A stretch of 64,000 nt of DNA. It comes from Candidatus Omnitrophota bacterium (GTDB lineage Bacteria; Omnitrophota; Omnitrophia; Omnitrophales; Aquincolibacteriaceae). Position numbers and translations under genes: made by a program. The notes below the pieces were generated by a model. That model saw only the letters and a list, made by a program, of their open reading frames with translations, was not told the origin of the DNA and did not search any database. Below are positions 3,442 to 54,859 of the stretch, one piece after another; position 1 is the first letter of the stretch; the number at the start of each line of letters is the position of its first letter. The stretch lies in contig CAISGE010000004.1 of assembly GCA_903884815.1 (NCBI GenBank), forward strand, positions 5,136 to 69,135, in the 5' to 3' direction.

Positions 3442-3691
3442 GTCCCGCTCCTTTACTTTTTATACTTTCGCATTTAGAGGAAATAATTCTATTCTCTTCG
3501 AATTGATTATCGGCTTGTTCTGTGATTAATTAATGCATTACCGCATCATCCAACGAAAAATTAACACATGGCTGTGAAATTAGCAAGGCCCTGAGGTGTT
3601 ATTTATTGCAAAAAGTCTGCTCGGAATAAAAGCCTCCGAACGACCCAAACAAGCGACCAAAAAGCGCCGCAACTCTTTATAATTAAAAGGG

Positions 3692-6059: not shown

Positions 6060-6347
6060 TTAGGATTTCTTAGCGGGGGCCGCCGTCTTCCCGGCTGCGG
6101 GTTTTGCGCCAGCGGCGGGAGCTGCTGCCGCGCCAGGAGCCGCAACTCCGTCAGCCGCCGCAACTTTGGCTTCCTTGACCTTCTTCATCTTGACTTTCAT
6201 CGACTTGACCTTCGGAAGATTGTAGGCTGTGTCGCGCGTGCTCCACTTGCCCATCTCCTGAAGTTTTTTGACGCGCTCGAGGCGCTTGAACACATTGCGA
6301 TGCTTGGCTCCGACGCTGTCAGAACGCAGGCTGGGATGTTGAGACAT
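6060..6347 (-). CDS. small basic protein with K/A/P-rich histone-H1-like C-terminal tail
   Basis: A GGAG sits about 11 nt upstream of the internal ATG. The C-terminal tail is KVKMKKVKEAKVAAADGVAAPGAAAAPAAGAKPAAGKTAAPAKKS. The annotated 128-aa ORF has a non-coding-looking N-extension. Confidence 0.5.
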   Translation of the reverse strand: MSQHPSLRSDSVGAKHRNVFKRLERVKKLQEMGKWSTRDTAYNLPKVKSMKVKMKKVKEAKVAAADGVAAPGAAAAPAAGAKPAAGKTAAPAKKS

Positions 6348-19067: not shown

Positions 19068-20157
19068 CGTTCGGCCATCGCGACGCGCTTGCCGATCGAG
19101 GGATGATCGTAAAAAAACCATTCATACCACGCCGGGGGCTCCGGGTCCGCGAGATTCTGTTCACCGAGCTTTTTCATGCAAGTGATAAAAACATCCCGCG
19201 TCTCAAGGGCCCTCAGTGCGAAAAGATCCGCCGCCCGCTCACGCCTTCGCGAGTAACCGTTCATGAGCGGCGTCAGGATCAGATTCACGATATAAAAGAT
19301 AAGGAACAGGAGTGGCAAACCGGCAACATCGGACGCTGAAGCCAGCCCCACCTTCCCCGCCATGGCTCGAATCCCCCAAAAGCCCGCCGCGAACGCGACG
19401 AGCGAAGCCACAAGCCCGAACCCCAGCAGCCGCCAGACATCCTGGTGTTTGTAATGCCCCAATTCATGAGCCACCACCACCTCCACTTCCGGATGGGTGA
19501 AGTTCTGGATCAAGGTATCACTCAGAACGACACGCTTCGTCCGGCCAAGCCCCATAAACGCGGCATTCGCCTTCTTGGTCGTCTTGCTCAAATTAAGCGA
19601 ATAGACATTCCCGACCGGCATATCAAAGCGCGCGGCAAGAGCCAAAACCTTCGTCTCCAGGTCCTTGTCCTCAAGGCTACCATACTTGTAGAAAAGCGGA
19701 ACGATCAGAACCGGAAATACCTTGCCCAGAACATAGCTGACGAACGCGTAGGCCGCCCAGGCCCAAAGCCACCAATGGGACGGATCGGCGCGAATGATCC
19801 AATAAAGGCATTCCAGGAGAACGAGGGATAACCCGAATGAAAGAAGCGTCTTCTTCCCGAGATCCAAAAGCCACTGGCGGAAATTCTGATTCGAGAGACC
19901 GAACCGGTGCTCCAGCATGAAGCCGGAATAAAAAGAGAGCGGCAAGTCGAATATCAGAAAGAAAAGCGAGAACAGGACAAAATAGATCGCGACCACGCCC
20001 CAGTCGCCAGCACCCACGAGAGCAACGGCATTCTGCCGCATCCCGAACGTCCATCCGCTCGCGATCAATATTCCAAGCAGCGCCGGCGTCAGAACGAGCT
20101 GGAACAGGCTGAGCCTTCGATGGATGAGCTGGTATTCACGAGCTTTATTTTCCATAG
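19052..20157 (-). CDS. M48 family zinc metalloprotease (HtpX/Ste24-like), multi-TM
   Basis: VVAHELGHYKHQD HExxH in the context of several TM helices. The start is set at MENKAREY (ATG about 20155). The 407-aa track ORF has an N-extension. Confidence 0.85.
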
Positions 20158-20215
20158 ACGGCTCTTTCCATGTCACACCTATTTGAACAACCGAATGTAC
20201 GTAGCCGATCGTAAG

Positions 20216-20308
20216 TAATAGGTAGTATGTAGTAGGTAGAAAATCCGTCTTTCGTTTCCCGTTACAACCTACCATCTACTACCTATCACCTACCACATAC
20301 CACCTACC
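20216..20308. repeat. tacc/ggta-rich imperfect inverted repeat in the 285-bp region upstream of the M48 protease gene
   Basis: Left arm TAGGTAGTATGTAGTAGGTAG. The right arm CTACCATCTACTACCTATCACCTACCACATACCACCTACC is its imperfect complement. The mismatches become G-U pairs in the minus-sense RNA. Confidence 0.4.
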
Positions 20309-22044: not shown

Positions 22045-25000
22045 CTAGGCGGCCTGAAGTACCTGAAGGAACGCGTGGATCGCGTCCCCGATCTGGTTCA
22101 AACGGCTCTGCAAGCTTTCGTCGGTAGCGGTAATACGTTTTCCGGGCTCAAACCCCATTTCCATGATCGTCAATTCGCTGAGTTCTTTGCCGGGGACAAG
22201 CGCCTGAGACAAGCCCACGGCTCCCAATCGAGACGCCATACGAAGGTCAGCATTCGTCGCATCATAAGCCTCCTCCACCACGACGCCTTTGGCTGTATTC
22301 AAATTATCCGTCAGCTTTCGCATGATGGCGCGTGCGCCCAACAAGACATAACTGCCCCCGCTGGCATCCGTGTTTAATTTATCGTTCAGCTTTTGCGTGG
22401 TCGTCAGGAAGACGGAAAATCTCTTTTCAACATCCTTCCTGAGCATCCCGCGCTTTTCAGCCGCCGCGATAACCCTGTTCTTCAAAGCCCGAACCTGGGC
22501 CGGCGAGGGACCTTGTTTGCCAAGATCGGTGACCACCGGCAACTTGTAACGCATCTCCGGATTCGGGTTTAACATAAAGATCGCAACGATCGTTCCCACC
22601 CACGCATCCAGTTCCTTTTCGTCCGTAGGCAACGCGTCCACCAATTCAAAGACCCGACCGGCCCCCTGGCCCGCCAGGTGGCTGAAAGCCTTAGGATTGG
22701 ATCTTTTGAAAGCGCTCACGATATCAGGCGCCTCTTCCCCACCTGCGGCAGCAAGCAATGACTCCAGCTTTCGGGCGGCTTCTTCTGGCGAATCCTGACT
22801 CAACGCCATGATCCCGCCCACCAGGAACGCCACCAACACGATGGCCTCCGGCATCTTCGCGTCCACACTCAGAGCCGCACGGACCTCGCTCATTTTTTTC
22901 TTCCCCAACAGCGCCCGCAGCTCGGGCGGCAAGGCCTTCAAGATATTCGCTCCGGCATCCACGGTCTTAGTACCGCGAGCCTCAGGTTCTTTCTGATATT
23001 GCTCCGCAAAACCCGTCACCTTCAGGGCCGCCGCGATCGCCTTCACCGTAGGCCTCGCCTCCGACCGCATCTCCCCTTCTTTTGCCTCTGTCCGGACTGC
23101 GGGAGCCGTTGGGGATTGCCCCATGACCGGCAGCACGGCCGCCTCCACCGCCGCACCCCTCGCTTGGTCAAGAGCCGCTTCCATAGCATCAACCGCGTTA
23201 GCTACAGAAGACTCCTCCCTCGCCGCACGGAAGCTTCCAGCAACCAGGGCTTTGGCATCCGCGCTGGGATTCTGGGTCAATTCCTTGACCATTTTCGAAA
23301 CCGCCAGAGACGCAATGCCGAGTCCCACATTCGCGTATTCTTTTCCAGTTTCTGCCTTAAGAAACTCACAAACCGCCTGACCCGCCTCCAGGGTCATTTC
23401 AAACCTTTCCGGCTGTTCCAGCGCCTCTATGGCGAATGTGAGCGCCACAACATAAACACTATCAGGATCATAGATCCTTCTGGCGAAATCGTTAATGAAA
23501 CCGTTCAATCTCTCAAGCCTCTCCTTCCCCAACCCAAGAGCGTCCGCATTGCCGCTACGCAGATACCGCTCAATGGCGTTTTCCCCTCCTGGGATATGAG
23601 CAGTCAGGGCTGAAAGAAAGCGCCTTTCACGAGGGTGAGTTTGCGTCCCATCCTGCGCTTTCCATTCAGCATACTCGGCAGATTTGAGAGGATCCGTCTT
23701 TTCGATCTTTTCACCTATTTCGGCCGTTTTTTGGATAGCCTCCCCGCTGACCCTGGCCTCCTCCACGACAAGAGAAAGAGACCGCTGGTTCTCCGGAATT
23801 TCCGACGTCCTCGCGGAACGATAATCTTTGTGGGTCAATTCGTGGATCACCGTTTCCAGATCCTCGAACTGATGGAACTTCGTCCGGACCAGGATCACAC
23901 TCTTGCCTCCCCCAAGATCGATATGCGAGCCTTCATGCGTCGCATCCGAATACAGGGAGTGAGATAGTTCTGAATCATCCGCGACAAAAATAATCTCGTC
24001 GGCATCCACCGAAATACCGGCATCAGCCAGCAGAGCAAATATTTTCTTGGAATGTTCCTGAACAAGGCTCCCCCAACGCCCGTTTTTTACGATATCGCGT
24101 ATCACTTCACGAACGGAAGCCGCGTTATTTTCCGACAAACCTTTCATCACCATTCCGGCACTCCCTTGAGTAGAACGCTCATCCTCCAGGGCCTGTTCAT
24201 AACTGCGGACCGCCCCTTCCAAACGTGCCAAGGCGGCCCCGGGTAGCGCAGCCTCAGCCTCCTGCCCAGAGTTCGACCCAACGATATCCCTGAGGACACT
24301 CAACAAACCCTCTGTCGCCCTCGATGAATCGGCCTCTCGCCGGCTTAGATTCGTCGCAAAGATCTTCCAAAAAACTTCTCTGTCGATATTCTCTCTCTCC
24401 GGCAGAGCCGCGTTTCTTTCCAATAGCTCCGAAACAGAAGGCCGCTCCAAACGCGCCCGGATCGCTCCCATATCCGGCGAATACAGGGCCACCGATCCCG
24501 GCGACATATGCAAAACCGAATCCTCCCAAGCGTTCGTGACAACCGCCTCGCTTGGCCGCTCTCCCGTTAATATTGCTAGCGCGGCGGCCGACTGCGATTG
24601 AATAGGAGTAGAATCCTTCTTCGCCCCCGCTTTTTGCTGATTCACCCAACGGATCAAAAGTGCAACATGAGACAGGCCCATCTTTAAGCTGCGGATGTAA
24701 TTGCTGATGATCCTGATACACTCATCCCGGTGATTTACAAAAAAATCGAGCGCTTCCTTTTGAGAAAGAGACAAGTCTCTCCATTGAGAAGATTTCTCAT
24801 GAAGTACGGCATCGATCGCTTTTCCAATATTGAGGTCCCGCGCATTCCATTCCTCGAGGTCGGTCGCGACATTGAGCTTGGCAGGGTCCACATCCCGGAG
24901 CCTAAACGCCATATCCAGAAGAAAGCGATCCGCCATGGCTGAGATCATTGTCTTTGTGAAGGTAGACAATCTCACTTCAGAACGATCCGACACGCTGCTG

Positions 25001-28000
25001 GACCGCACCTCCGCCACCGGCTTCGCTCCCGCCCGCAGATCGCCGCGGGTACTCACTGGCGAAATAACCGGCATTGTGGACGTCTGTCCGACTACCCCAG
25101 CCAGCAACTCCCGCGTCTCGGAGCGGTCGGGCTCGTTGGGAATCCCGAGAAATGTTGCGCTTTCATCAAACGCAGACTGAACCTGATCAAATGGAATTTT
25201 TAGAAAGCCGGCCAGCTTCTCCATTTTTTCGGCATCGAATCCGGGCCGGAGGGACATCAGCCGGATCAATTCCCACTTCGAACTTGGGGTAAGAAATTCA
25301 AGAGGAATGGCTTTGCATTTTTCCTTTTCAAAGATCAGATCGCGAGATGCCACACCATACCGCCGGAAGCCGCGCTCGCTCGTTTGCTTCTCCGGGTCGA
25401 TTTTGACGCTTTCAAAATCCTTGATATACAGCTTTGCCGTTTCCATATCTGGAAAATTAAAGATCAGCAGGCCTTCTTCCTGCCAGGAAAGCGCTTCCTC
25501 GATCGCAATCGTAACCATCCCGCGGCTCATTTCTCCGGTTGCCGCCAGATCCCCCAGCGGATCACGATCGTATTTTTTCACGCCATGAAACCAGATCCTT
25601 TTAAGTCTCGCGTCGCTGAACTCATATCCCGTCTTCACTCGGCTGATATCGCCATTTTTGAGCCCCGCTTCCAATTCGCTCGGCAAAAGAGGGACACCAT
25701 CAACATTCACCAATGCAGCTCCGTCTTTCATCTTCAGGTCGGGATAAGTTCTCGTCTCGGAACGGATTTGATCGGTGGTTTCAAGCGTGCGGCGTTCTTG
25801 CCGCTTACCCTCGGCGGGTTGGACGGGCGCCTCATGACCTGCGCCCTCTGGCGTAACACCAGACTTTTCCACGAACTTCTTCGTCTCAGCCTTGATCGTT
25901 TCTGTCATCACTTTCGCCACATCCGCACCTCTCCCGATAAAATTTGGCGACAAGGCCGCATCCACGAGCGTCGGAACGACATCCTTCTCGGCGAAAGCTT
26001 TAAATACCCTCTCCACCTCTGCTTTCAACCCCGCCGCATTAAACGGATCTTTTCCGTCTTTGTTCTTCATGGAAAAACCGTCCATATCGAAATCAAGGAT
26101 CAAGGGTTTTCCAGGATCGGCTTGCGGCAATTCTTTCAAGTACACAATGTGAACTTTGATCGGCCTGAGGTGGCTCAGCGTATATTTCTCTAAGATTCCT
26201 GGATAGCGCTTCCCCGGATCCTCCTCCGGATGCATATAGACCTGCTTATCGCTGGGATCGGTTTTTGACGTAAGAAGCCCAACATAATAGGTACCCCCTT
26301 TCAACACAGCGGGAGCAGCTCCGGGATACTCCGGAAGGATCCAATATATCTCGCTGATCATATGCTGAAGTACCGCAGGAGCGATAAACCCCTCGATGCT
26401 AAAGCTTGGCTTGGACATATCCGGCTTATCCGGATCCTTCACATTTTCAAGGTCCCCCAGATCAAAGTGAGAGTCCCAGTGATAAAGCACCGCTTCGTGA
26501 ATCCCAGCTGCCGCCCATGCAAGGTAAGCGCTATTATGATTCTGCATCATATACACGGGAGCTTTCCCCATATACCCCGTCAGGTGGATACCATCTTTTT
26601 CATGTTTTGTGACGCTGGGAACATAATCTGGCTCGAGTTGTTGGCCATGCAGTGAAATGGAGGCCGCTAACGATAATCCCGCAAGCCCCGCTCGCCGGAG
26701 CAACGCTTTCCGCACCTCGGAGCGATCGGTAGCCGCGGTGGAGTTATTTGACCGGGACTCGGAACGGCCTCCGGGCGCAACAAAATCGTGAAAATATCTA
26801 TCTTTCGGCTCGTTAAAAAAGAATCCCGATCGGGCGGCAAACAGATAGTGACGTTTTACAAAATCCTTGAGCGCCGCGGAAGCATTATCATCTCCTTGTA
26901 TTTCCCCGAAGAATTCCTCGCCGTTGTCTTCTTCATGGACCCTCATGACAACATCCATGAACTCATCGGCGGAAAGGCTCCAATTTTTCTCGTTTATAGG
27001 TTTTAGCTCAGAATTTTGCGGCAGCCTCGCTGTTGACCTGCTCGGCCCGCTCCCCAACATCTGTCCTCCGGCAACAAAGGGTGTTCTACGAGGTATGCCA
27101 TCGAGCTGTCCCCCTCCTACAGGAGTAAACGACTCCATGATCTCCCAGGCCGCCCGCGCCACGGGAAGATCGCCGTTATCGGCAAGCCGGAGCACCAATT
27201 CGTTATCCACAACCCGCATCACGACATTACTCCTCCGTGGATTTCCGTACATCCTGCCGGTCCCTTTAAACGAGCTGATCATGAAGGCAATAGCACGCGC
27301 ATCTAGATATTTCAGTAGTCCGGATAATTCTTCCCTCAAGCGGGATCGCTGGTCCAACATTCCATCATCGATCTGAGGGCCGCCATTGAGAGACAAGAGT
27401 CCCATCGCCCTCAGACCATCCATGTGCTCCATCAACGCATCCTCGGATAAAGCCTCAATGTCCGTTCCATCCCACTTTGACCGGGTTAATTCTTCGAGGA
27501 TCTTCACAGGCTCATCCATAGGGATATCGCGCTCAAGCATCTTCACGGCGGGCCTCTCCTTTTTAGCAGGAACCGGCGGTAACACAACCGGCTGCTCCGA
27601 TGTTCCCACGAGAGGTCCTGGCTGATCGATCCCGGCATGAGACGCAAATGATTCCGACAATGCTTGGGCTCGATCTGCGGGTTGCAGGGATAATTCGTCG
27701 AGAAAATCCACTAAGTGGAATCCCAATGGGGGATGCCCTGCGTTATCCGCCATATAGCTGTCTCTATAACGCACGGCATATTGATTCATGAGGTTTTCAT
27801 GATGCTGCCCCGTAAAAAACAAGGCCAACTCACTTTTGATCCTGTCCGGCGATTTCAATATCCCGTAATCCACAAGAGCCATAATAAAATCAAACCGCTC
27901 CTGCGGGGACATCGAAAGCCCCCTATAACCCGGAAACCATCCTTCCATATATTCCCGCATGTCTTCATTCTGGGTGAGAGTCCCCGTCGTGACGCCGTCG

Positions 28001-31000
28001 CCCGCCGAAGCCTTGTTCAGCGCAACAAGGCTTCGCGCCAGAACACCCCGTTGCTGCATGAGGCCGTCTGACGCCCTGCAGCTTTTATCAACTTCCAGTA
28101 AGAGCGCGATCCTGGAGGGCAGTCCTTGCGTCTTATCTTCCCTCATGAGTAGATCGACCACAGCCTGAAAGATCTCGGGATCCGAAGCACCTTCTTTGAG
28201 AAATTGCGTAAGACGCTCATCGCGCAGCGGATTCCCTTCGCGCTGAGTTTCAACCCAAAACCTGAGTTTGCGTATACCCTCCCGCCGCACATCCGCCTCT
28301 GCCGATCGCAGCTCATGAAGAATATTCCCCATAAGATCAAATCCCAACGGATTTTTCTGTTGAGGGATGGGCGGAAACATATCCTCCCGTGACTGGCCGG
28401 GGTTGGCGGCATCCATGACCTTACGGACCTTCTCCGCATGCGCCGAGTTCCCCCGATCATCATTAAATCTCTTATTCGTATCATTAAACAAAGCCTCATC
28501 CGCACGGATCAATGCCAACGCCTGATTCGCCACATAAGAAGCTCTTGCAAGACCCTTCCGAACTTCCTCGCTTGGATGAGCGCCATATTGGTCCGCGCTG
28601 AGCTTCATAAAACGTTCGATATGTTTTTTAATTTCAAGCAAGGAGTGAAAGTTCTTAAGGTCCGGATCATAATAATCGTGAAGGGCTCGAAGCGCCCCGA
28701 TCTCACCTTTCAGATAATAATTAAAAACGCGGTGAACGAGCTCTTCGAGCTTTTCGAGCGGCATGGCGGCGGGAGAATCGTAGAGGATATGATGTTCCCG
28801 CGCAAAGTTCGCGAACGCCCGCTGATTATTAAGGTCTTCCCCGTCAAGGTCGTACCAGCCACCGCGGGGGGCTTTATACGTTTCGAAGCCATCGTCCTTA
28901 GCATCCGCACCAGCCGCCTTTATCTTCGGAGCAAAATCCATCGGCATCACACCTTTATCAAGAAGTGTGGCTGCCACCGCGTCGCTCACGGTTTGAGTCG
29001 GATCCTCCGAAAGCCTCCGCACCTCGATCCCGCTCGATGCGGGAAGAGCGGCCTCCGGCAGGAAAGTTTCGTTACCGAGGATCACGGATCCGGGAGGAAG
29101 CTTCAATGAACCGATGATTACCGTATCCATCGGATCGATCACGGCCAATTGGTCTAAAACAGCCGCTAGAGGAATCAAAACGACATATTTCGCACGGTAA
29201 AAAGGTGAGCGCTCGGGAAGAAGGGAACTTGTCACTGTTGAATTAAGACTGAAATGCAACGTCTCCCAGGCATGTGGCTGCAGAAAGTCCCCGTTGGGAG
29301 TCAGGACCTCTTCGGAAAAGAAACTTCTGGGATGGATAAATCCATCTTCTTCCGGATTTGCATCCGTCATGTGTACGAGATAGATCTGGGCGATATTCAG
29401 GGTTTCTCCGTCCCTTGAAATAGGAAACCCCTTTTCTTTCAGACTCGCCTTGGCGCGCTTCCACTTTTCCATAACAGCGCGAGACCACCCATGACTGAAC
29501 CGATTAGCGCCCTTGGACCGTGTCGAAGGCGCGCGTGCGGGCTTGGATGGGGCGGGCTTTGCGACAAAAGAGGAAGATGCCTCCGCAGGCATGCCCTTCC
29601 TGCGCCCATTCGTCACCAGTTTTTTCAGCTCTTCATAATCAGGTGATTTGAAATTCATCTGCTCGTCGAACGCGTGCTCCCGCAGCCCGGCGTAACTCCC
29701 CGCGTCAACCCTGTAGAACTCGGTCAGGATTTGAAAGAACTGCGCGATCGGAAGCTGCGCTTCCCTGGCAGCGGTCCTGACCTCCACAAAAGCATCCTCC
29801 AAGGCTTGGGCAATTTCAGCATCATCCCCCCGGATTCTGGCAGAATACGTCCGTTCAAGCATCCTTCCCAGAGGATCAAATGCGATGAGTGCGTTAGCAA
29901 GTTTCCGTTCTTCGGGAGTAAATTCAAAGAGATCATAGAGCTTGTTGTCTTGGATCAGCTGGAGCGACCTTTTATGCTGGAGGCTCTTATCTCCATCATC
30001 CTCCACCGCCGTCGGCTTCCCGACGTCGTGAATAGCAATCAATAAGCGGTAAAATCGCGGTGAAAAGTTATTGGGGAAGAACTCTTTTCGTTGCTCGAAT
30101 TCGTGAAGCACCTGGGCATCATGCTTTCGCAAACTCAGTTTCTGCACGACTCCTACGCTTCTCGGAAATTCATTTCGCAGCACCGGAACGCTTCGTGCCA
30201 AATATTCAAGAAATCGATCAATGCTGTCGCCATCCATCTTTGCCGAATTCGCCAAGTTCAAAGCATCTCTGACCCGCGTCTCAGAACGGCCGGCACCCGG
30301 CTCGGCGGGGCGAACTTCTGCGGCATTGGGCGGATTCAAGGATGGCCCCCGGCCCACCAAAAGCTCTCCGATCTTTAACAGTCCTGCAAAAAAGGCCGAC
30401 TTCAAGAATCTATTCACTTTTGCGCGGGCTGTGGTCAATCTCCCGGGCTGATCCCACTTGAAGATCAACTTTGCCGCGTCAAAAAGGAAGAAGATCGCAA
30501 CAGCAGTCATCCCACCCAAAAGGAAGAACGCGCCAGCATATTTGAGGGCCAGCGCAAAGCCCGCAAGGGTCCGCTCCTCCTTGGTAACGCCGCCCTTGAT
30601 CACCTGCTCAAACCAGGGCGTCTGCCAGGGTAACTCCAGCACATCCCAGAGCAACAAATAAGCGATGATCGCGACTTGACCGAGAGGCGAGGTCTCGACA
30701 GGGGCCTGACGCAGGACAGACGCGATAAGCTTCGCCACGTAAGGAAACGTGCTCAGATAAACGACCAGGTATTCAACCGCATAAAGAAATCCGGGATGCT
30801 TTAAAATCTCTCGAGCCCTCATCGACGCGATGTATCTCACTACCTGGATCATAATCAGTCCGGGAAGAAGTACTCTTTGAAATTGCTTCCAAAGGTTCGC
30901 CGGTGAAACCCATCGTGAACCAGACCGACTCAAACCAGCCTCCGCCGGCGTGGCGGAAGTTTCAGCTCCCTCTGTTTCGGGAGAGGAGGCGACCGAAGCC

Positions 31001-34000
31001 GATTTTTTGGGCGAATACTTTGCGGCAATCTTTATTGCAAGCTCCCCGATCTCACCAAGCGGTTTTTCATATAAGGGACCGGCCAATCTTGCCTGAGCCA
31101 AGGCCCACTGCTCCATTTTGGCAACTTCTTTCCGACTCGGATTTCTGTCTGCTCCAAGTTCGGAAAACTTTTTGATCGGCGGTAAGATCCGCTCAAGAAT
31201 ATCGCCGGCCAGGATCATTTGTCCGAGATCCAAGGACTCATGGCTCTCCATATACAGCCTCGCCACGAAATCCGCGGGATAAGAGGTGGCATACCTTTCT
31301 AAAAGCCATTTCCCGAAATCTTCCCCTTCAGAGTAGGTGCTGTAATGGGCCCCTCTCTCACGGTTAAAGTTTGCGTTAAAAGTTCCGTCGATAAGATCAA
31401 GATCTCCCGTCCAAGATTCCCCTCCCCCGGTTCCATAGAGAAAAGGCCTCCAAGACGCATGCAATTCCTTCGGAGTTTTCACAACGCTCTGCCCCGCGAC
31501 TTTTCCGGTCGGGGTGCCAGTCGCAAGCGTTTTAAATAACGCAGCCCCCAGGAACCTTCTGTCCCGAAAGGGTCCTTCTGTCGAACTCGCGCCGATCTGC
31601 AGGTCACTCAACAAATGCGTGTACTCATGCCAAAAGACAGAAGCCCATGAATCAAAAGTCATCCCGTCCGTTTGGGACTGTATTTTCACTTCAAAACCCT
31701 CTGGACCTGGGAATTCAAACCCGTTCGGATGACGGATGAACACCCTTGCAAATGTCGTGGTAAGATCATCCGTCTGAAAAAGGATCGAAGTCGACCGCTT
31801 GAGGATTGTCGATGCCTCTGCGTTGTCCTTGCCGTCAATACCCGCCGCCTCGAGGTATTTCTTAATAAGGTAATCTGTCATGGCGGCCCAATAGCGCATG
31901 AGCAAAGGAAAATCCGCCGGAATATCCATTCCCCGTTCTCGTTTCAATTCCCTGAAACGCTTTTCCTCGCTCACGTAATGCGGGTATTTCGAAGCCTCGG
32001 CTTTCAATATCGGTAATGCCTCGTGATAGGGAATCCCCTTCTCCATCAACTGCCGTATTGTTTCGTTTATTCCGGCCATAAATCTTGCGTCTTCTAGAGA
32101 TAATCCGGTCGACCCCTTCTCGATTTCCATGGCGACATTTAACTCTCCCGCGCCCTTCAGCGGAGTCACCACCACACGCTCGATAATAGCCCTCACGGAC
32201 CAGAGCTGATCGGATTCCACCATCCAGCGATAAACCCGGTTTGACTTCATTGCTGAAAAGCACAGCACCCCTGCCAACGCGGGGGGAACGAGTATTCGGA
32301 CGAGCGGGGACCGCCGTAATCTTCGCCAAATATTTCGCCGCTGCTCCGCACGCGACTCTGAGGAGCGTGCAGGTTGGGCAACGTCAGTCGGGGTGCGGGT
32401 TTCGGAGCGGACATTTGGAATATTAATTTTCGCCGCATCAGCACCGCTCAGGTCCTCCACAGACAGCCAATCAGCCGATTTGATGGAACGGACCATTTTG
32501 AGCAATTCCAGAGAAGTCATGCCCGAAAAATTGAAGAGTTGCCCGCAGGAAGCCAGCAAATTAAAAACATCCATCACGTCATCTTTAACAGGAATACCCG
32601 CACGCTCCAGCTCGGCGATCACACCCAAAAATTTTCCGATCATCGACTTACCAGACGCAAGAACATTGCTAATCTTCACCTCGACATCCGGGTTCATCGA
32701 TGCCTGGCCTACAAGGAGAGCTCTAAGTTCTTTAACAGCCATTTTCCGGGCAATTCCCTTGCCAACCGGCAATTTCTGACCGATCAATAAGGCCTGCATC
32801 AGTGCCCACAGACTCTTACGGCTATCGATGCTAAGAGTCGACGCAGCGCCGAGATCGATAATGGAGATGCGGATCTTTCCCTCGGCCGTGCGAGACACAA
32901 AGATATTTCCCCTGTGCGGATCCGCATGATAAAACCCGCAAATAAACATCATCCGGAAGAACAAATGTCCAAGAATATGTTCAACCGCAACGGGATCAAT
33001 TCCCAGAGCGGCAACACCCGCGTCGTCGGTAAGTGGCACTCCCGGCGCTGTCCTTTCCCTCATGACTGAATTTTGGGCTATTTCGTGAGCGATCGGCACG
33101 TCAAATTCATAGCCCCGGAAAGCGTTCTCCGCGCCCGCCTGCACAACGCGGATCGCTTTGGCGAGTCTTTTTTGATTCTCACCCTCCAGATCAAAATCCA
33201 TCTCCTTCCGGATCCGGTCCTCCACTCGGTCCAGCATCTGCTTCGGGACATTGATCTTCAACTTGTCCCCCAGCATTGCCGCCACGCGCCGCATAAATGC
33301 AATCTCCTCCTCTATGCGCTGTTCCCCGTCCGGGCGTTTGATCTTCACGATTTCTCTGCTTCCGTCCTGAGTGAGCGCCTCGTCTACTGCCTTAACCGAC
33401 GCGTTCCTTTTTTTATTATGCAGCTCCTGAAAGACATCCGTAAAACTGCCGAAGACCCTGTCGGTCATTTCAAACTTATCCTCGATCGGCATTGGATTCG
33501 CGCCATCCTTTAATCTCTCGAGGCGCGCCCGGATCTCGGGCGTGATGTCCTTGTCATCGATAAGAGGGGAAGAGGAAAGAATCTGCCCGAGCTTGACCAT
33601 GGTGATCCCGAACGATTCGAAGACAAGCCCAACGACTTCAGCCTCTCTCTCTTCCCGGGAAAGTCCTGGATCAGCAATGCGTGACAGTCCCGCGCAAAGA
33701 GATAAAAGCACCTGCTCTTTTCTGTAAGGGTCGCCTGCCTCTATAAGAATATCGTATATCCCCTTATAGAGGTCCCGGCGTTCCTTTTCAGTGCCGGCTT
33801 CCCCCTTGGGGTAGGCGTAGTTGAAGATAGCGTCGAAAAGATCCGCCGCTGCGTGATTGGGATATTCCCGCACGTAGGGAAGTCCGTGCTTCGTGGACAT
33901 ATCACGTCGCGTCACCTTCGCGGTTTCAGCCAAGACGCCGTTCTTACCGTACAACAGTAGATCCAGCATGTCTTGCCGCAGGCTGGTTCCGATGCCTTTA

Positions 34001-37000
34001 TAGTGGCCTTCTTCTCCTCCACGGAAGAGTTCGCGTAGAAAATCGTAATTAACCTCAAAATCATGCTCAATCCTCAAGAGAAAGGCGGGCTTATTTTCCG
34101 TGACGCCCACCAACCACAAGATAAGATCTTTTTTAGATTCCGGAGCAAGCTCGGAAACGACCTGGAGCAGTATCTTTTCTTTGCCAAAAAGATTATCCCG
34201 AACCCCTTCTTTCCTGGTATTCCCTCGGAATTGAAGAAGATAAGACTGCACAATCTCCAGCATGCGGGGCGTTACAACCCTTTCATTCTGGATCGAGCGA
34301 AGCACATCGTCCCGAGTGTAGCTGAATTCCTTAAAATAGTTTTCGACGACGATCCTGACCTCCTCTGAAAAATCGCTAAAAAGATCCGGACGCATTTCAC
34401 GGTCAACTTCCAGTGCCAGGAGAGCCGATCGCTCGCGAACGCTAGAACTCTTGAAGTCGTTATCCAGCATCGCCCTCATATGAGTGATGAGACTGTCTTG
34501 TTGCTCGCGGGTCAATTTGTTCGCACGCATCGCGTCACGGATACCCCGGAACAGCTGTTCCATGAAGTAGTCTTTCGGTTCCGAGTTTTCGGCAAAAAAG
34601 GAACGGACCAAATCCCTCCGAGACTGCATGACCTCAACAATATCCTTAACCTCTGTCTCCGGCACTTCCGCCGACAAGTGAGAAGCAAGTATGTCCCGGA
34701 GGAGCATCGGAACTGCATACACGATCTGGGTGGCATGCCCGCCCGTATTCGTGAACTCAGCGGGAGTGTAGCGTTCCGTCACGCTGGAAGGAGCGAACTG
34801 ACCTGCATTATTTATATTGATCGCGCAATTTTCACTCTTGGAAATCCGAATGCGTTCATTGGCCTCCTCCATGGCAACGTCAAGCTGAAGCGACGGCATG
34901 ATAAGCGCCGCGGAACGGAGAATGGCTTGTTGCTGCCCCGCTGGAAGCGCACCTATTTTCTGGCGCACCCCCGCGATGTCAAAATAGTCGGCCATCGTGT
35001 CGTCCACGACCACTCCGTTTTTCCTGAGAACCATCTCCACAAACACAAGATAAAGAGCCATGTTCTTCATCATGCCGTCCGGAAGAACGGCGTTCAGCTC
35101 CGCCACCACCTCTTCGAAAGTGCGCCCAGCGGCTGAAATCGGAAGGCCATAATCGAGCAGGCGATTGAATATCTGACTCGGCAGTAAATTCTGCACAGTG
35201 CCGGGAGAAACATTTCTGATCAAATCTGAAGGAAGATACAGAAGCCACCTGTTTTGCCAATCGTGAGTTGAAAACGGGCCCAGATATGCCTGATCCGAAA
35301 TCTCAACATCAGGAGTATCCGAAAAGAATAGCCGGTCCACCCGGTATGGAACCTCCCCGATACGCCGGGACCGTCCGTGAGTATCAAATATTCCGTTGTC
35401 TCTGTATTTCCCTAGACGAAGGGCCAAAGCAATTCTCACCATGAATCCGTTCCATGTCCTTATGCGCCCGATAGCGCTTGGCTTCCAATCACCGGGCAAA
35501 TTTCTAATCATCCTGGAAAATGTCCCCCGCTTCGTCTGGACATCCCTCTGCGACAAAAGGTAGTTGTACAAAGCGGTCCGCTCGACAAGCGAAAACGGAA
35601 CATTGTGAACCGGGTCTGTTTTCTTAAATGAGCCGGAAGCCGCGGGATCTCCGTCGTCGATCAGTTTTATCTTCTTGAAATACTCGATGATCCCCTCATA
35701 GTCATTCGCGCCGAAGACGCCGCCCATTTCGTAGAAGAAGATAATTTTTCTGATCGGTAAGGCCAACTCTCCGGCATTTTCCACACCCGCGGCGGCTAGA
35801 GCGGAATCTATCCGATCGGATAATAATTCCTCGCTCAGACCATTCTCGCCAAGGATCATTTCATAGAGACGGCTATTCATGAGCAAAAGGTCCTCCTGTT
35901 GGAGGCTTCTCGCGTAGAGCCCCCTATCAAAGGCCCGGACGTCATAATTCCTGTCTGGATCCTGTTCATCTTCAAGCTTCCAACGCTCATTCAAGTCAGC
36001 GGCGTGGGTTGTAAGGGCATAGCGTAAAAGGTCTATTTCGCCCTCCGGCCCAAGGTGGTAATATTCCATGATCGTAGAAATGTAATCCCCGTATTTACCT
36101 TTAAACATCTCGAGAGCAAGCTGAACCGCTTCCACGGCGGTCGGCGCATTGATCGCCTTGAGCCACCTCAGCACAAATTCTCTATTTTCAATGACGGGGT
36201 TCGCCCCCCCATTAAAGCAAGTAGCATGAATAGGCAGATTTCTTTGTTCTTCCGCGCTTAACAGGCCCGTGGCAAGAAGAGCTAATAGATCCTCAACGGA
36301 GTCAATGGGGTGATCGGTTAAAAGCCTCAGGAACTGTTTACGGTCAGCATCGTTCAGCGTTGCGCCAGCGCTAAGCTTCTTTACCATGGCGCTCTCAACC
36401 AATCTCAAAATATCCCTGAATAAGAGCTCCCCGCCCAGAGGCTTCGCCTCATACTGGGCACGAACCTCAAGTTCCCGTTTTCTCTGATCGATCCGTCTGT
36501 AAAGATCCATCAACTGTTCGGGAGTGAGACTGTCCTGATTGCGTGCCAGATATTCCCGGACAACTGATTCGATGAATCTTATGTGGGAATCAAAAATCAC
36601 ACTTTTCAATTCCAGAAAACTCTTCTCCATATCCTCCCGTCCATGATCCTGGGCGGTCTTCTGCCGCGCAGCTCTGGACAAAGAAGGAACAGATTGGCTT
36701 TCAAAATTCAATATGTCCGGAGGCTGCGCTTCTAGCAGCCCGAGCAATGATTCGCCATTGACAGCACTCCCGGACTTTGTCAAAAATTCAGTGATTCTCG
36801 AAGCGAACTCTTCTGCGGAGGAATTCGAAGATAAAAATTTATCGACGGCATCTTCCAAGACGAATTTGCGTTGAACCTCATACGCAGAAACTTCATCGGG
36901 TGATAGCTTGGAACATAAAGTGCTCGCGCGACTTTTGTAGACGGCTTCGCTATCATCCACCCCGTTTTTCCTCTTCAGAATGTAGGCGAGAGCATAGAGT

Positions 37001-40000
37001 GTTTGAAGTTCTTCCATGGTTTCGGCACTGCTCATCAAATCGAGAATCATTTTGAGCGATGCCTTATCCCCGTAGTTGACAAAGCTCCCAGTTATGCGCT
37101 TCGACACAGCTTCCTCTTTAAGACCGCTTTCGCGCGTTCTCCTCCGTGATTGACCACCTAACTCCTTGGTAGCCAGCGTCGAAATATCACCTCGGGTGTC
37201 ATTAAAATGACGCCAATATCTCTTTTTCTGATTCTCCATATTCTTGAGGCGTCTCTCCACCGTATTGTGTTCCCCAAGCCACGAGTCTTTAAGATTATTC
37301 GCTTTCATATATTCCCGGATACACCTCATCGCCATGATCGCGCCCTGCATTGAATAACCAGCCGATTCCATAAAATCCAGCGCGTTATTGTCCGCATCCT
37401 CTTCGTCTGTAAACCGTACGGCACGACGCTTGAGGATCGAATTCAGCGGAGGATTCACCCCCAACCGTTGCTCTTCCTCATAGTCCGCCCAGCCCTGTTT
37501 GATATGCCCGGTCTCATGCGAAAGGATATAGGCAATCATCGCCCGCGACCCTGCAAGTTTTTGATCAGGCGGCAACTGAGCAACATAAGCTTCGATCAGC
37601 TTCAAAAACCCAAGCGAAATATAAACGCGATGATCACCGGGATAAACAAACGCGTCGGGTTCATTCTTGTCCATGAGATGAAGTTCAAATTGATCCGGAA
37701 CAAGTCCCACTTTTTGAGACCCGAGGATGTCCCTGAAAACAGTCTCGACTTCATTATAAATCCCTGAAAACTCTCCCGAATTTCTTCCGATCAACCCATC
37801 TTTCGCTAAAATCGCGCGCATTGCCGCGTTATTTTCTCCCTCGATCGCCGCGTCGATTGGAATCCGCCCTTTAACAGGCAAGGTCCGTGTCTCAGCACGG
37901 CCATTCAAATAATTCTCAATCGCTAGATCAAAATCAGCAGGTTCGGCTTCCAGAAAACGCACGACATTCCGGACAAAATCCCTTTTGATTTTATCCGTTG
38001 CATCCATTCCTCTCAAATGCTGAAAAACAGGCTTAGAACTCTCCCCAAGAACACCGCCCAGAAATCCCAGTAATTCCGCAGCATCTTTAAAGAACCTCCG
38101 TACGAGTTGCAGCTGCCCCAAAACCGTTGTGAAAGCTGAAATCAAGACTTCGTTAGAGTCGGTCGGCAGGTCGAACGCTTTAACCGGATCGATAAACACA
38201 AGATCAGGTGTGGCCCCTTTGGCCACCTCTTCTGGATTCCGAAGTAATACATCGTCGATGCCGTAATCATAAACGACGCCTACCGGAAATCCGGACTGGA
38301 ATTCAAACTGAACCTGAGACCATAACAGGTGAGCATCCGAAAGCAACTGTTCAAAGATCCTCTTCCGGATCCCGGGATCCTTATTCGATTTAATGAACGA
38401 TTCTAGAGTGACGCCGCTCTCCCATTCTGAAAGCTGCATATAAACTAGATCGGTGTCTACAAAATGCACTTGGGAATCGACCGATATCTCGCGGGCAACT
38501 TTGCGGGCAACTCTCGGATTGGAGACGATCTTCAGGTTCAATGCCTTATCCCGCTTAGCGGACTGCAAATTCAAATGACGCTCATCAGAAAATTTTATCG
38601 CAAGATCCCGGGATACCCCGCCGGCTTGAAAGGTCATACGATGAACGTGTCGACCGGAGCCTGAAAGAACGCCTGCGTGAACTGATATATGGATCACCTC
38701 GTTCACAGGAATACCCACATCGGCCAAATAATGATTTAATTCGGATTCATGCTCATGAAGGAAAGGAAATAGCCTTTGTTCGAACAGCTGATGACCATCC
38801 TGAAATCCAGCTTGATTTCCGGCCGCGCTCCACTCAAAAATCAATCCACCTTTCGTCAGCTTCTCACCCTTCTGCCCTGACGCGAGATCTTTGGTACTTA
38901 CAGGCTCCGTAGTAGCAATGGGCTCTTCAGTCGGCCGGACTTTGGAGCGTGGTTTTTGGCGGCCTTCGGAGCGGGCGAGTGAGACGGTGACGGAATATTT
39001 GGATCCGTCTCCGATGGGCGTGAAATGAACGGCATAGAACTTTCCGTTCTTCGTGAAGGCATCGCTTGTCATAACATACCCGTTCTCACCTTCGGGTTCG
39101 ACATTCAACGGGTGTTCGAATTCCTTGGCGACAAAATCGTTATAGAATTTTATCGTTGCTTCAAGATTTTTGGGATCGCCTCCTAGTAGCTTTAAAAACC
39201 AGCTCTCGAGATGTCTTTCCAGCGCCTCGATATCGACCCCTTGATCAGACAAGACTCCTGACCGCTGCAGCACGCTTGGTAATTCCAGGGTCGCGAGGTC
39301 GAACAAGCTGGACTGCGTCTGGAGCATATTCTGCCGGTACATCTTGTCGTTGCTTTTCTCGGTAAGACGCGGGGTGAGAATACCGTAACTGGTCTGATGT
39401 TCCCGGAGGAGGTCCGTGATCCCGTCCGTGTGAAAACCGCCGGTGACGAGAATGGCTTTGGACACCGCTCCCTTGGTCATGACGTCGTTGATCTTTTCGT
39501 AAAACACATTTTCACGTTTATGCGCGGCTTCGTAAAAACTGTAGGCCGCCGCTTGGGCGCCTGTCACTTCCGAGCGGAATTTGTCATTCACTTTCTTGGT
39601 CTCGAAATTCGAAAGCGGCAGCCCGTACTCTTTGCTGAGCGCCGTGCCGATCACTTTAAGTCGCGCCACCATCGCGTCCATGGACAGTGAGTCTGCATTT
39701 TCCGTCATTCTGAAGCCTGCGGCCGAAGAATCTCCGCCAAGATCCTTCGCTTCGTTCAGGGTGGCAGGGGTTTTGACTAATCCTCGTTTCTGCTCCACCT
39801 CCTGCCATTCCTTGCGCGGAAGCTCGAGGTTGAGGAGCTTGCGAATGAGCTCTTCATCACGGAACAGCTGCACGAGTTCCTTCTGCCGCGGCGACACAGC
39901 CTGGGTGTCGAGAATGCGCGTGAAAACGGCCTTGATCTCCTCAAATAGGCCTTTCGGATCAAGTTCGTTTTTTAAGATGAGATAACCGGCATAAGTGCTG

Positions 40001-49055: not shown

Positions 49056-49212
49056 GGCTTGAAGTTCGGATTGTTGAAAAGGAGGGTGGATTATACCGCA
49101 AAAAAATTGGCGCGCTACTTATTTATGGCCTAAAAAACGCCAAACGGGAAGCGAAAATTCTTCGACGATTAGGCTCGGGAGTAGACTCCACCCGTTTCCC
49201 GTCCCCCGACGC

Positions 49213-51275: not shown

Positions 51276-51284
51276 AATGTATTA

Positions 51285-52244: not shown

Positions 52245-52310
52245 CGTTTCAAAAGTTTCTCATTGAATAAGACAACGTCGTAAGACCGCTGCCCGGATTA
52301 ATAAAAGATG

Positions 52311-54858: not shown

Positions 54859-54859
54859 A

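What the first reader, a model, noticed from the sequence alone, without database searches (positions are those of the whole stretch)
30440..30900. Mid-protein cluster of hydrophobic helices divides the giant protein into two enzyme-bearing halves
After about 3,400 mostly hydrophilic residues there is a run of four to five 20-25-residue hydrophobic segments (for example FLYAVEYLVVYLSTFPYVAKLIASVL and LAGFALALKYAGAFFLLGGMTAVAIFFLF). Hydrophilic sequence then resumes and continues to the HD module and the third zincin. With an N-terminal signal peptide this predicts either a polytopic anchor or a membrane-insertion/translocation module. The latter would work like the hydrophobic translocation domains of large toxins, placing the C-terminal half across a membrane, perhaps of a host or prey cell.
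Basis: inference. Interest (0 to 1): 0.55.

Follow-up and report, generated by a model that had tools for sequence, protein, structure and literature searches.

The report
Membrane-anchoring cassette inside giant Omnitrophota protein
The hydrophobic stretch is real and is most likely an ordinary membrane-embedded anchor, one of several in a 6,349-residue modular protein of an uncultured Omnitrophota bacterium, not a toxin-style translocation device; the more interesting result is that the protein's modules are separated by a strict Arg-Ser-Glu-x-Arg motif that may mark cutting sites.

Summary
The hydrophobic cluster exists where stated: aa 3408-3581 of a 6,349-aa ORF (window 22045-41094, minus strand). 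It is the most hydrophobic 185-aa window of the protein. By scales calibrated on membrane and soluble genes of the same window, only H4 is an unambiguous membrane span. H2 is probable; H1, H3 and H5 are marginal.

It is not a unique divider. A signal peptide and three other membrane-type segments also occur (aa 8-25, 2931-2949, 4797-4817, 6084-6098). The module has no homolog in 1.84 billion representative proteins, Pfam or the PDB, and nothing links it to toxin translocation domains.

The host is Candidatus Omnitrophota, whose long proteins are already known to carry many transmembrane helices. The best reading is an orphan inner-membrane anchor cassette.

The ORF belongs to a family of about 80 proteins with a conserved N-terminal head, swappable cargo and a conserved C-terminal tail. 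The positional ortholog lacks this cluster.

Cargo modules are delimited by R-S-E-x-R: 347 observed against 4.2 expected. In relatives the motif is followed by Sec, Tat and lipoprotein-type signals. A polyprotein reading is therefore not excluded.

The parts
22045..41094 (-). Giant ORF, 6,349 aa, organised as head, cargo modules and tail
   Evidence: The same 6,349-aa product is called in five other assemblies.
30274..30927 (-). Hydrophobic cassette, aa 3390-3607, from RSGSR to the RSETR junction. It is all-helical and has no homolog.
30820..30873 (-). H1, aa 3408-3425, VLLPGLIMIQVVRYIASM. Marginal span or signal-anchor-like segment, with an Arg inside.
30712..30792 (-). H2, aa 3435-3461. Probable transmembrane helix (KD19 1.71, Hessa 4.4) containing E and K.
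30625..30684 (-). H3, aa 3471-3490. Marginal span or interfacial helix containing D and E, with a Trp-rich C-terminal end.
30481..30567 (-). H4, aa 3510-3538. Unambiguous transmembrane helix with 20 uncharged residues, followed by a K/R-rich flank.
30352..30408 (-). H5, aa 3563-3581. Amphipathic helix, marginal as a span.
30274..30288 (-). R-S-E-T-R junction motif (aa 3603-3607) closing the cassette. The HD-like module shared with P0001 and P0003 starts here.
32248..32304 (-). Upstream membrane-type segment, aa 2931-2949. Its N flank is Arg-rich and it lies 16 aa after RAEQR and 35 aa after RSETR(2896).
31615..31629 (-). HEYTH motif (aa 3156-3160) of the module between the aa 2931 segment and the cluster. 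This is a motif only, with no family match.
29605..30273 (-). HD-like module following the cluster. It is 48-50% identical to P0001 and 29% to P0003, and in both relatives it is not preceded by a hydrophobic cluster.
26644..26706 (-). Signal-peptide-like segment, aa 4797-4817, directly after RSEVR(4791). It precedes the UPF0489/peptide-arginase-like stretch.
22801..22845 (-). Tail transmembrane segment, aa 6084-6098, conserved in the tail module of relatives.
41020..41073 (-). N-terminal signal peptide or signal anchor, aa 8-25, conserved across the family.

Best explanation
Window 30274-30927 (-) encodes an orphan, all-helical, integral-membrane cassette (aa about 3395-3602) of a modular 6,349-aa protein from a Candidatus Omnitrophota bacterium.

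H4 certainly, and H2 probably, cross the producer's own cytoplasmic membrane. H1, H3 and H5 are either weaker spans whose buried charges pair with each other (R3420, K3455 and K3518 against E3441, D3485 and E3488) or interfacial helices.

Its job is to tether neighbouring cargo to the inner membrane. That cargo is the HExxH-bearing module upstream and the HD-like module downstream. Insertion would be through the normal Sec/YidC route; this step is inferred.

The cassette is one of at least five membrane-targeting segments in the protein. It is also one of many mutually unrelated hydrophobic cassettes found in a family of about 80 Omnitrophota proteins. Those proteins share a conserved N-terminal head and C-terminal tail and exchange the cargo in between, with cargo modules delimited by R-[S/A]-E-x-R.

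The number of spans, and therefore whether the two flanks lie on the same side, is not settled. Taken alone, the charge distribution favours an even number with both ends cytoplasmic. Taken together with the segment at aa 2931-2949, an odd number would make the cluster the return leg of a loop that exposes the HExxH module to the periplasm.
For: Shown by tool results:
- Hydropathy on four scales, calibrated on genes of the same window.
- All-helical secondary structure in the AlphaFold2 (AF2) model, although pLDDT is only 48.
- Trp enrichment in the module.
- K+R counts: 2-TM 20:4, 4-TM 17:6, 3-TM 8:15 or 11:13, 1-TM 13:12.
- The host is Omnitrophota: GcvPA is 82-87% identical to about 12 Omnitrophota MAGs (metagenome-assembled genomes).
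- Family of 79 relatives sharing the head and the tail.
- 15 of 81 members have a 185-aa window with GRAVY >=0.5, at varied positions.
- The syntenic ortholog P0003 (uvrD-[giant]-acyltransferase) keeps head, HD-like and tail modules but lacks this cluster. P0001 likewise lacks it.
- GC3 of the cassette is 0.634, which equals the genome level of 0.627 +/- 0.038.

From the literature: Omnitrophota long proteins are 94% TM- and/or SP-bearing, 39% of them SP+TM (10.64898/2026.06.07.730766). [quoted passage not shown]
Against: - No dedicated topology predictor could be run.
- Only one segment is unambiguous, and three of the five fall in a grey zone.
- A 19-mer as hydrophobic as H4 occurs in 5.4% of composition shuffles.
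- There is no homolog and no sequence variation between assemblies, so conservation cannot be used.
- The AF2 model is of low confidence.
- An uncleaved chain with an N-terminal signal peptide and no span before aa 2931 would place the ATP-dependent ABC1 kinase (aa 2527-2772) outside the cell. A simple 'one chain threaded through the membrane' picture is therefore internally awkward.
Confidence: 0.6

Rival explanations
1. Polyprotein reading. The ORF is translated as one chain and cut at R-[S/A]-E-x-R junctions on the cytoplasmic side. Each cassette then behaves as its own pre-protein. The hydrophobic cluster, alone or together with the HExxH module that starts with the aa 2931 anchor, would end up as a separate small polytopic membrane protein or membrane-anchored peptidase. 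This overlaps with the best explanation on 'it is membrane-embedded' but differs on mechanism.
For: - The motif is 82-fold enriched in the family (347 against 4.2 expected). Lys is not tolerated at either Arg, and Ala partly replaces Ser (93 against 6.2).
- There are 9 copies in this ORF against 0.16 expected, encoded with varied codons, and none in other ORFs of the window.
- The first junction closes the head in 50 of 81 members.
- Tandem units carry one motif each.
- A hydrophobic stretch follows 12% of motifs within 35 aa but precedes only 2%.
- All 3 strict Tat consensus matches (RRxF[LIV]K) in 215,699 aa lie within 40 aa after a junction (p 5.6e-4).
- 2 of 3 internal lipoboxes follow a junction.
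- P0031 has two identical consecutive units, each made of junction, cleavable-looking signal peptide and domain. An uncleaved chain cannot give both units the same topology.
- A module with a signal-peptide-like start carries PG_binding_1 at 9.9e-14.
- Cleavage would resolve the ABC1-kinase-outside paradox.
- West-Roberts et al. suspected cleavage but had 'no information about cleavage points'.
Against: - There is no direct evidence of cleavage and no identified protease.
- The head has no recognisable fold or family.
- About 88% of junctions are not followed by any signal.
- The signals could be relics of gene fusion.
- The motif N-terminal to the cluster is RSGSR, which is not an enriched variant.
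- The most distant family members lack the motif.
Confidence: 0.3
2. Toxin-type translocation or pore-forming module. The cluster would insert into a prey or host membrane and carry the C-terminal half across it, as in large clostridial toxins or the diphtheria toxin T domain.
For: - There is a superficial resemblance: a run of hydrophobic helices lies between enzyme-bearing regions.
- Omnitrophota are thought to be predatory or parasitic.
- The cargo includes enzymes that need cytoplasmic cofactors, such as the ABC1 kinase.
Against: - No similarity to any toxin translocation family or solved toxin structure at E<=10.
- No autoprocessing cysteine protease, RTX repeats or receptor-binding repeats.
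- A Sec-type signal peptide plus other membrane segments argue for retention in the producer.
- The module is absent from the positional ortholog and from the other HD-module relative. A translocator needed to deliver that cargo would not be expected to be missing there.
Confidence: 0.05
3. Not membrane-embedded. The helices would form the hydrophobic core of a soluble helical domain, or a peripheral membrane-binding domain.
For: - H1, H2 and H3 have uncharged runs of only 12-16 residues and contain R, E, K and D.
- Their GES-trapezoid scores (below 0.6, 0.90 and 0.97) overlap the peaks seen in soluble controls, which range 0.6-1.2.
- The soluble ABC1 region of the same protein reaches GRAVY185 0.46.
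Against: - H4 has 20 consecutive uncharged, uniformly hydrophobic residues (hydrophobic moment 0.13). It scores like the best spans of FtsW and MraY.
- The KD19 values of H1-H5 (1.39-2.17) all exceed the maximum seen in the four soluble controls (1.19).
- Module GRAVY is +0.61, compared with 0.70-0.93 for MraY and FtsW.
Confidence: 0.08

Closest known systems
Omnitrophota long/giant SP+TM multi-enzyme proteins (West-Roberts et al. 2023, bioRxiv 10.1101/2023.11.21.568195; 2026 preprint 10.64898/2026.06.07.730766; Seymour et al. 2023, PMC10066038)
   Same: Same phylum. A single very long ORF with an N-terminal signal peptide and scattered internal transmembrane helices. Unrelated enzyme-type domains tile the chain, sequence conservation is poor, and cytoplasm-type enzymes are paradoxically predicted outside the cell.
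   Different: It is shorter, at 6,349 aa against the >=10,000 or >=30,000 aa studied. No SecA-DEAD-like, dockerin or TSP3 content was detected. The head/tail conservation and the R-S-E-x-R junctions are not mentioned in those papers as far as full-text search shows.
Translocation (pore-forming) region of large clostridial toxins, and the diphtheria toxin T domain
   Same: A cluster of hydrophobic helices lies in the middle of a large multi-domain protein, between catalytic parts.
   Different: There is no sequence similarity and no autoprocessing or receptor-binding domains. The protein has a Sec signal peptide and other membrane segments. The cluster is not conserved with its cargo.
MARTX multifunctional toxins
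   Same: Several unrelated effector modules are concatenated in one giant polypeptide, with swapping of modules between relatives and processing at defined inter-module sites.
   Different: No RTX-type repeats and no C80 cysteine protease domain were found. The junction motif is different, and cleavage is unproven here.
Viral polyproteins of the flavivirus type
   Same: Enzyme modules alternate with internal signal or anchor sequences. A short basic junction motif recurs, and the topology only makes sense if the chain is cut.
   Different: This is a chromosomal bacterial gene next to housekeeping genes. No protease has been assigned and cleavage has not been shown. This is an analogy of mechanism only.
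Polymorphic toxin / Rhs / CDI-type architecture
   Same: A conserved N-terminal part is combined with highly variable downstream cargo, even between positional orthologs.
   Different: Many cargo modules occur in series, and the C-terminal tail is conserved rather than variable. No immunity gene is evident, and much of the cargo is housekeeping-type enzymes.

Membership tests
Omnitrophota long SP+TM multi-enzyme proteins | Encoded in an Omnitrophota genome | tested here: met
   GcvPA of the window is 82-87% identical to about 12 Candidatus Omnitrophota MAGs, and the next-best phyla are at <=48%. Named family hits are Omnitrophota.
Omnitrophota long SP+TM multi-enzyme proteins | Length threshold used in the literature (>=10,000 aa catalogue; >30,000 aa 'giant') | tested here: not met
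   The ORF is 6,349 aa. It has the same architecture but falls below the published size cut-offs.
Omnitrophota long SP+TM multi-enzyme proteins | N-terminal signal peptide plus internal alpha-helical TM segments | tested here: met
   By hydropathy only: aa 7-27, 2931-2951, 3519-3539 and 6081-6101 are 'certain' by a TopPred-like scan calibrated on FtsW, MraY and M48. DeepTMHMM was not available.
Omnitrophota long SP+TM multi-enzyme proteins | Several unrelated enzyme domains tile one polypeptide | tested here: met
   M48-like, ABC1/UbiB kinase and UPF0489/peptide-arginase-like matches, plus HExxH motifs and an HD-like block.
Omnitrophota long SP+TM multi-enzyme proteins | Divergent SecA DEAD-like domain (present in 'most' giant genes per West-Roberts et al.) | tested here: not met
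   No SecA family in Pfam or NCBIfam scans of the whole protein at E<=0.01.
Large clostridial toxin translocation domain | Sequence membership of the TcdA/TcdB pore-forming family | tested here: not met
   Pfam scan of the module at E<=10 returned 0 families. PDB sequence search at E<=10 returned 0 hits.
Large clostridial toxin translocation domain | Adjacent autoprocessing cysteine protease and N-terminal glycosyltransferase; C-terminal receptor-binding repeats | tested here: not met
   None detected by Pfam in either half of the protein.
Large clostridial toxin translocation domain | Insertion into a target-cell membrane and delivery of cargo | not testable with these tools
   This needs liposome insertion or prey-cell localisation experiments.
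MARTX toxins | Glycine-rich RTX-type repeat regions and a C80 cysteine protease domain | tested here: not met
   No such Pfam families were found.
Diphtheria toxin T domain | Sequence or fold similarity to the T domain | tested here: not met
   No Pfam or PDB sequence match. Fold comparison is not meaningful because the model has pLDDT 48.
   79 relatives; 37-61% identity for the 57 closest. Invariant residues include E104 and G552-G553-F554-H555-T556.
   9 copies against 0.16 expected in this ORF. 347 against 4.2 expected in the family.
   The giant ends in FLQVLQAA and most complete members end in AA or SA. Tail homology was found in 18 members by jackhmmer, and the tail is 35% identical to P0003 including the TM segment.
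Proteolytically processed polyprotein | Cleavage at the junction motif | not testable with these tools
   This needs proteomics or N-terminomics.
Proteolytically processed polyprotein | Export or anchor signals placed directly after junctions | tested here: met
   In relatives: Tat consensus 3 of 3 after junctions, lipobox 2 of 3, and tandem signal-peptide units. In this ORF: aa 4797-4817 after RSEVR, and aa 2931-2949 after RAEQR.
Proteolytically processed polyprotein | A dedicated processing protease | tested here: inconclusive
   The head has no recognisable family or fold. Three HExxH motifs in the cargo are unassigned.

The most novel reading that the evidence does not exclude
The ORF and its roughly 80 relatives would be bacterial polyproteins. 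R-[S/A]-E-x-R would be the processing site. Each cassette would be a pre-protein that stays in the cytoplasm or carries its own Sec, Tat or lipoprotein signal. The hydrophobic cluster would be released, alone or with the upstream HExxH module, as a separate membrane protein. This would supply the missing 'cleavage points' for Omnitrophota giant proteins. It would also explain why cytoplasm-type enzymes sit behind a signal peptide.
Probability: 0.3. Interest if true: 0.85.

Novelty: new member of a known kind. Interest (0 to 1): 0.42.

Why it matters
Taken alone, the hydrophobic cluster adds little. Internal transmembrane helices are already the expected feature of long Omnitrophota proteins, and this one is an orphan with no assignable activity.

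What matters is the context that the check uncovered. The protein belongs to a family with a fixed head and tail and rapidly exchanged cargo. The cargo boundaries are marked by a short, very strict motif, and in relatives that motif is followed by bona fide-looking Sec, Tat and lipoprotein signals.

That gives a concrete, testable answer to an open question raised in the giant-gene literature: are these proteins cut, and where? It also provides a rational way to split them into modules for structure prediction and topology analysis.

Tried and rejected
1. Homologs of the cassette. The word-index search of 5.8 billion proteins found none. Full phmmer against 1.84 billion representatives gave one hit, P0002, which is a spurious sum of weak matches to a 58-aa tandem-repeat translation. 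Pfam at E<=10 and the PDB at E<=10 gave nothing. A local phmmer against the 80 relatives gave only an insignificant linker match to P0007. The searches do not return the query's own cluster, so 'no homolog' means none outside it.

2. Related loci. HD-module patterns were absent from GTDB genomes. Cassette peptides were absent from JGI metagenome contigs.

3. Selection analysis. Five assemblies are identical over the last 9.9 kb apart from one base in one of them, so dN/dS is impossible.

4. Structure. The single-sequence AF2 model of the cassette has pLDDT 48, so only its secondary structure was used and no fold search was made.

6. The 'every module has an even number of spans' rule was rejected. 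Single-span modules (50) outnumber two-span modules (19).

7. R-S-E-x-R as a DNA repeat or recombination scar was rejected, because the codons vary.

8. Internal duplication of helical hairpins within the cluster: no self-similarity was found.

9. Foreign origin of the cassette was rejected. Its GC3 of 0.634 matches the neighbouring genes.

10. Hydrophobic cassettes of ten relatives were scanned for known membrane families, with nothing significant.
Full report
**What is at the coordinates**

The finding lies inside one uninterrupted ORF, window 22045-41094 on the minus strand, 6,349 aa. No ORF of 80 aa or more on either strand competes with it between 30440 and 30900.

Five hydrophobic, helix-forming segments can be delimited:
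- H1: aa 3408-3425
- H2: aa 3435-3461
- H3: aa 3471-3490
- H4: aa 3510-3538

A single-sequence AlphaFold2 model calls the whole stretch helical.

**Is it more than chance?**

aa 3396-3580 is the most hydrophobic 185-residue window of the protein, with GRAVY +0.61 against -0.32 overall. The runner-up is 0.46, in the ABC1 kinase region. Maxima of 500 composition shuffles averaged 0.33 (sd 0.10), with one extreme at 0.73.

I calibrated four simple scales on genes of the same window. A TopPred-like GES scan recovered 10 of 10 spans in FtsW, 10 of 10 in MraY and 7 in the neighbouring M48 protease, all at 1.1 or above. The soluble proteins UvrD, MurC, GcvT and GcvPA gave only peaks of 0.6-1.2, with KD19 <=1.19 and Hessa sums >=5.8.

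Against that yardstick:

| Segment | Scores | Verdict |
|---|---|---|
| H4 | GES 2.28, KD19 2.17, Hessa -1.1, moment 0.13 | unambiguous |
| H2 | KD19 1.71, Hessa 4.4 | within the true-span range |
| H1, H3, H5 | KD19 about 1.4, Hessa 6.8-7.5 | grey zone |

H1-H3 each contain one or two charged residues. The charges are roughly balanced (R3420, K3455, K3518 against E3441, D3485, E3488). That fits a packed bundle but does not prove one. Trp is three-fold enriched in the module (6 of 218 residues, p 0.016).

One is certain, one probable and three possible.

**It is not a single divider**

The same scans find a signal peptide or anchor at aa 7-27 and a strong segment at aa 2931-2951. The latter has an Arg-rich N flank, with 6 K/R in 15 residues. 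They also find a signal-peptide-like stretch at aa 4797-4817 and a strong segment at aa 6081-6101. So the protein is not two hydrophilic halves joined by one hydrophobic hinge.

The enzyme labels need tempering:
- Pfam/NCBIfam support an M48-like stretch (aa 1115-1209, weak).
- They support an ABC1/UbiB kinase (aa 2527-2772, 4e-30).
- They support a UPF0489/peptide-arginase-like stretch (aa about 4845-5011, weak).
- The other two 'zincins' are bare HExxH motifs.
- The 'HD module' has no Pfam match.

**Whose gene is it?**

The neighbours are housekeeping genes: uvrD, the glycine-cleavage genes, a dcw cell-wall cluster and an acyltransferase. GcvPA is 82-87% identical to about a dozen Candidatus Omnitrophota MAGs and at most 48% identical to anything else.

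The same 6,349-aa product is called in independent ENA, Logan and NCBI assemblies. Five of these are identical to the window over the last 9.9 kb, apart from one base in one of them. The ORF is real, but there is no population variation to analyse.

**The cassette is an orphan**

No homolog was found in any search:
- the word-indexed 5.8-billion-protein search
- an exhaustive phmmer of 1.84 billion representatives, where the lone hit P0002 is an artefact of a tandem-repeat translation
- Pfam at E<=10
- PDB sequences at E<=10
- JGI metagenome contigs

Because those searches cover the clostridial-toxin pore, diphtheria T-domain and MARTX entries, the toxin-translocation reading fails every membership test I could run. 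No autoprocessing protease, RTX repeats or receptor-binding repeats are present either.

**The family context**

Searching with the first 2,500 residues returned 79 proteins of 1,395-4,363 aa, and those carrying a source name are almost all labelled Omnitrophota. They share only the N-terminal ~600-720 residues (about 22-29% of the 2,500-aa query), at 37-61% identity for the closest 57 (alignments). Behind this 'head' the content differs completely from protein to protein. Precomputed Pfam hits include HATPase, receiver, NUDIX, Fic, CMP kinase, PRTase, HPr, methyltransferases, trypsin, PGM and PEP-utilising domains.

Most complete members end in ...[A/S]A-COOH. They share a tail module of about 300 aa containing one hydrophobic segment, which is homologous to aa 6043-6346 here.

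P0003 (3,862 aa) sits at the same chromosomal position in a related genome, in the order gcvPB, lplA, small ORF, uvrD, [long ORF], acyltransferase, Exo_endo_phos, M48, MA_2. It shares the head (60%), the HD-like module (29%) and the tail (35%), but it has no counterpart of the hydrophobic cluster. P0001, whose HD-like module is 48-50% identical, has a soluble module in front of it.

The cluster is therefore a dispensable, exchangeable cassette, not an obligate partner of its neighbours. Hydrophobic cassettes as such are common in the family. 15 of 81 members have a 185-aa window with GRAVY >=0.5, at varied positions. None resembles this one or any Pfam family.

**Module boundaries**

The pentapeptide R-S-E-x-R occurs nine times in this ORF against 0.16 expected. 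The copies use varied codons, and the motif is absent from every other ORF of the window.

Across the family it occurs 347 times against 4.2 expected. R-A-E-x-R occurs 93 times against 6.2. K at either Arg position is not enriched, and the flanks are unconserved. Some members use RAEKR or RxEAR instead, and the most distant members have no such motif.

The first copy closes the head in 50 of 81 members. Tandem repeat units carry exactly one copy each.

The cluster is closed by RSETR (aa 3603-3607), where homology of the HD-like module to P0001 begins. On its N side there is only RSGSR, which is not an enriched variant. The last true junctions upstream are RSETR (2896) and RAEQR (2915), just before the aa 2931 segment. 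The functional unit may therefore be aa 2901/2920-3602: anchor, then HExxH domain, then hydrophobic cluster.

**Topology**

Counting K+R in the loops gives the following:

| Model | K+R, side of N flank : other side |
|---|---|
| 2 spans (H2, H4) | 20:4 |
| 4 spans (H1-H4) | 17:6 |
| 3 spans (H1, H2, H4) | 8:15 |
| 3 spans (H2-H4) | 11:13 |
| 1 span (H4) | 13:12 |
| 5 spans (H1-H5) | 11:10 |

Taken alone, the cluster looks like a hairpin anchor with both ends cytoplasmic.

The aa 2931 segment, with its Arg-rich N flank, should run in-to-out. That places the HExxH domain outside and requires an odd number of return spans for the HD-like module to be cytoplasmic. 'Bracketed' cassettes of this kind exist in relatives, for example P0007 aa 2573-2864 and P0025 aa 837-1171. 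I cannot settle the parity with these tools.

I tested and rejected the simple rule that every inter-junction module has an even number of spans.

**Why a polyprotein reading stays open**

If the chain stays intact, the N-terminal signal peptide and the lack of any span before aa 2931 put an ATP-dependent kinase outside the cell. This is the same paradox noted for other Omnitrophota giants.

In relatives, junctions are followed by export signals far more often than chance:
- A hydrophobic stretch follows within 35 residues in 12% of cases, against 2% before the motif.
- All three strict Tat consensus matches in 215,699 residues follow a junction (p 5.6e-4).
- Two of three internal lipoboxes follow a junction.
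- A signal-peptide-headed module carries a peptidoglycan-binding domain.
- P0031 has two identical consecutive units of junction, cleavable-looking signal peptide and domain. These cannot share a topology in an uncut chain.

In this ORF, RSEVR (4791) is followed by KALLRRAGLAGLSLAASISLHG. These are inferences. No cleavage has been shown and no protease is identified. The head's fold is unrecognised.

**Comparison with the literature**

Published work states three relevant things:
- 94% of 916 long proteins carry TM helices or a signal peptide, and 39% are SP+TM (10.64898/2026.06.07.730766).
- The V. archaeovorus giant has 42 predicted helices (PMC10066038).

No paper in the searchable library combines Omnitrophota with 'polyprotein'. 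The two giant-protein preprints contain no mention of linker or polyprotein, and the 2026 one none of motif or junction either.

**Verdict**

The hydrophobic cluster is a real, probably membrane-embedded, orphan cassette. It is an ordinary feature for this kind of protein, and the toxin-like reading is unsupported. The noteworthy result is the junction motif and the signals that follow it, which make the processing question testable.

Noticed in passing
window 38959-38973, 32395-32409, 30274-30288, 26752-26766, 26710-26724, 25750-25764, 25111-25125, 24970-24984, 23053-23067 (all - strand): The pentapeptide R-S-E-x-R occurs nine times in the giant ORF against 0.16 expected. Codons vary between copies, and the motif is absent from all other ORFs of the window. 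In 81 family members it occurs 347 times against 4.2 expected. R-A-E-x-R is also enriched and K is not tolerated. It marks module boundaries and is a candidate processing or recognition site.
   Followed up: yes
window 39115-41094 (-), aa 1-660: This is a conserved 'head' shared by 79 Omnitrophota proteins at 37-61% identity for the closest 57. Its motifs are HIQNAHANY..AQ, FVEGA and TGGFHTDG. The AF2 model has pLDDT 75, but there is no Pfam, PDB-sequence or Foldseek-PDB match. My guess of a TraB/TIKI-like fold was not supported.
   Followed up: partly
window 22048-23052 (-), aa 6015-6349: This is a conserved C-terminal tail module with one hydrophobic segment. Nearly all complete family members end in ...[A/S]A-COOH (here FLQVLQAA), which is reminiscent of C-terminal recognition tags. 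Its meaning is unknown.
   Followed up: partly
relatives P0029 aa 2124, P0051 aa 804, P0065 aa 1468, P0036 aa 882, P0049 aa 1716, P0031 aa 676-893: Canonical Tat motifs (TRRGFLK, RRDFLK), lipoboxes and tandem cleavable-looking Sec signal peptides sit inside long polypeptides, directly after junction motifs.
   Followed up: yes
window 26062-26562 (-), aa 4845-5011: There is a weak match to UPF0489 / the FlmR-OhkR peptide arginase family (27.6 bits, far below the cut-off). The module starts with a signal-peptide-like segment. It is curious in a protein whose junction motif has two invariant arginines.
   Followed up: no
window 32779-33516 (-), aa 2527-2772: An ABC1/UbiB-type kinase domain (4e-30) lies between the N-terminal signal peptide and the first internal membrane segment. 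An uncut chain would place this ATP-dependent domain outside the cytoplasm.
   Followed up: partly
window 37885-38958 (-), aa 713-1070: This cargo module has GC3 of 0.478, against 0.627 +/- 0.038 for neighbouring genes and 0.67 for the head and tail. Most other cargo modules are at about 0.56, and the hydrophobic cassette (0.634) is genome-like. This suggests a mosaic origin for the cargo.
   Followed up: partly
L045 (JGI 3300037067 contig Ga0378408_0000063) 5001-17369: The positional ortholog P0003 (3,862 aa) has a largely different cargo. It is followed by a small ORF with a weak Y1 transposase match that is absent from the window.
   Followed up: partly
window 47955-61310 (-): The dcw cluster (three successive Mur ligases, mraY, a MurD-like ligase, ftsW, murG, a further Mur ligase, ddl, ftsQ, ftsA; Mur-ligase identities inferred from gene order, and the ORF at 59820-61310 was not scanned) is followed directly by gcvT. 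No ftsZ lies next to ftsA in this window.
   Followed up: no
whole giant ORF and family: Cysteine is very rare: 0.2% in the giant and 0.14% across the family.
   Followed up: no
window 17874-20275 (-): A seven-span M48 (Ste24/HtpX-like) protease and a TPR plus Peptidase_MA_2 protein lie three genes downstream. They are also present next to the ortholog P0003 but not next to P0007. No functional link was shown.
   Followed up: partly
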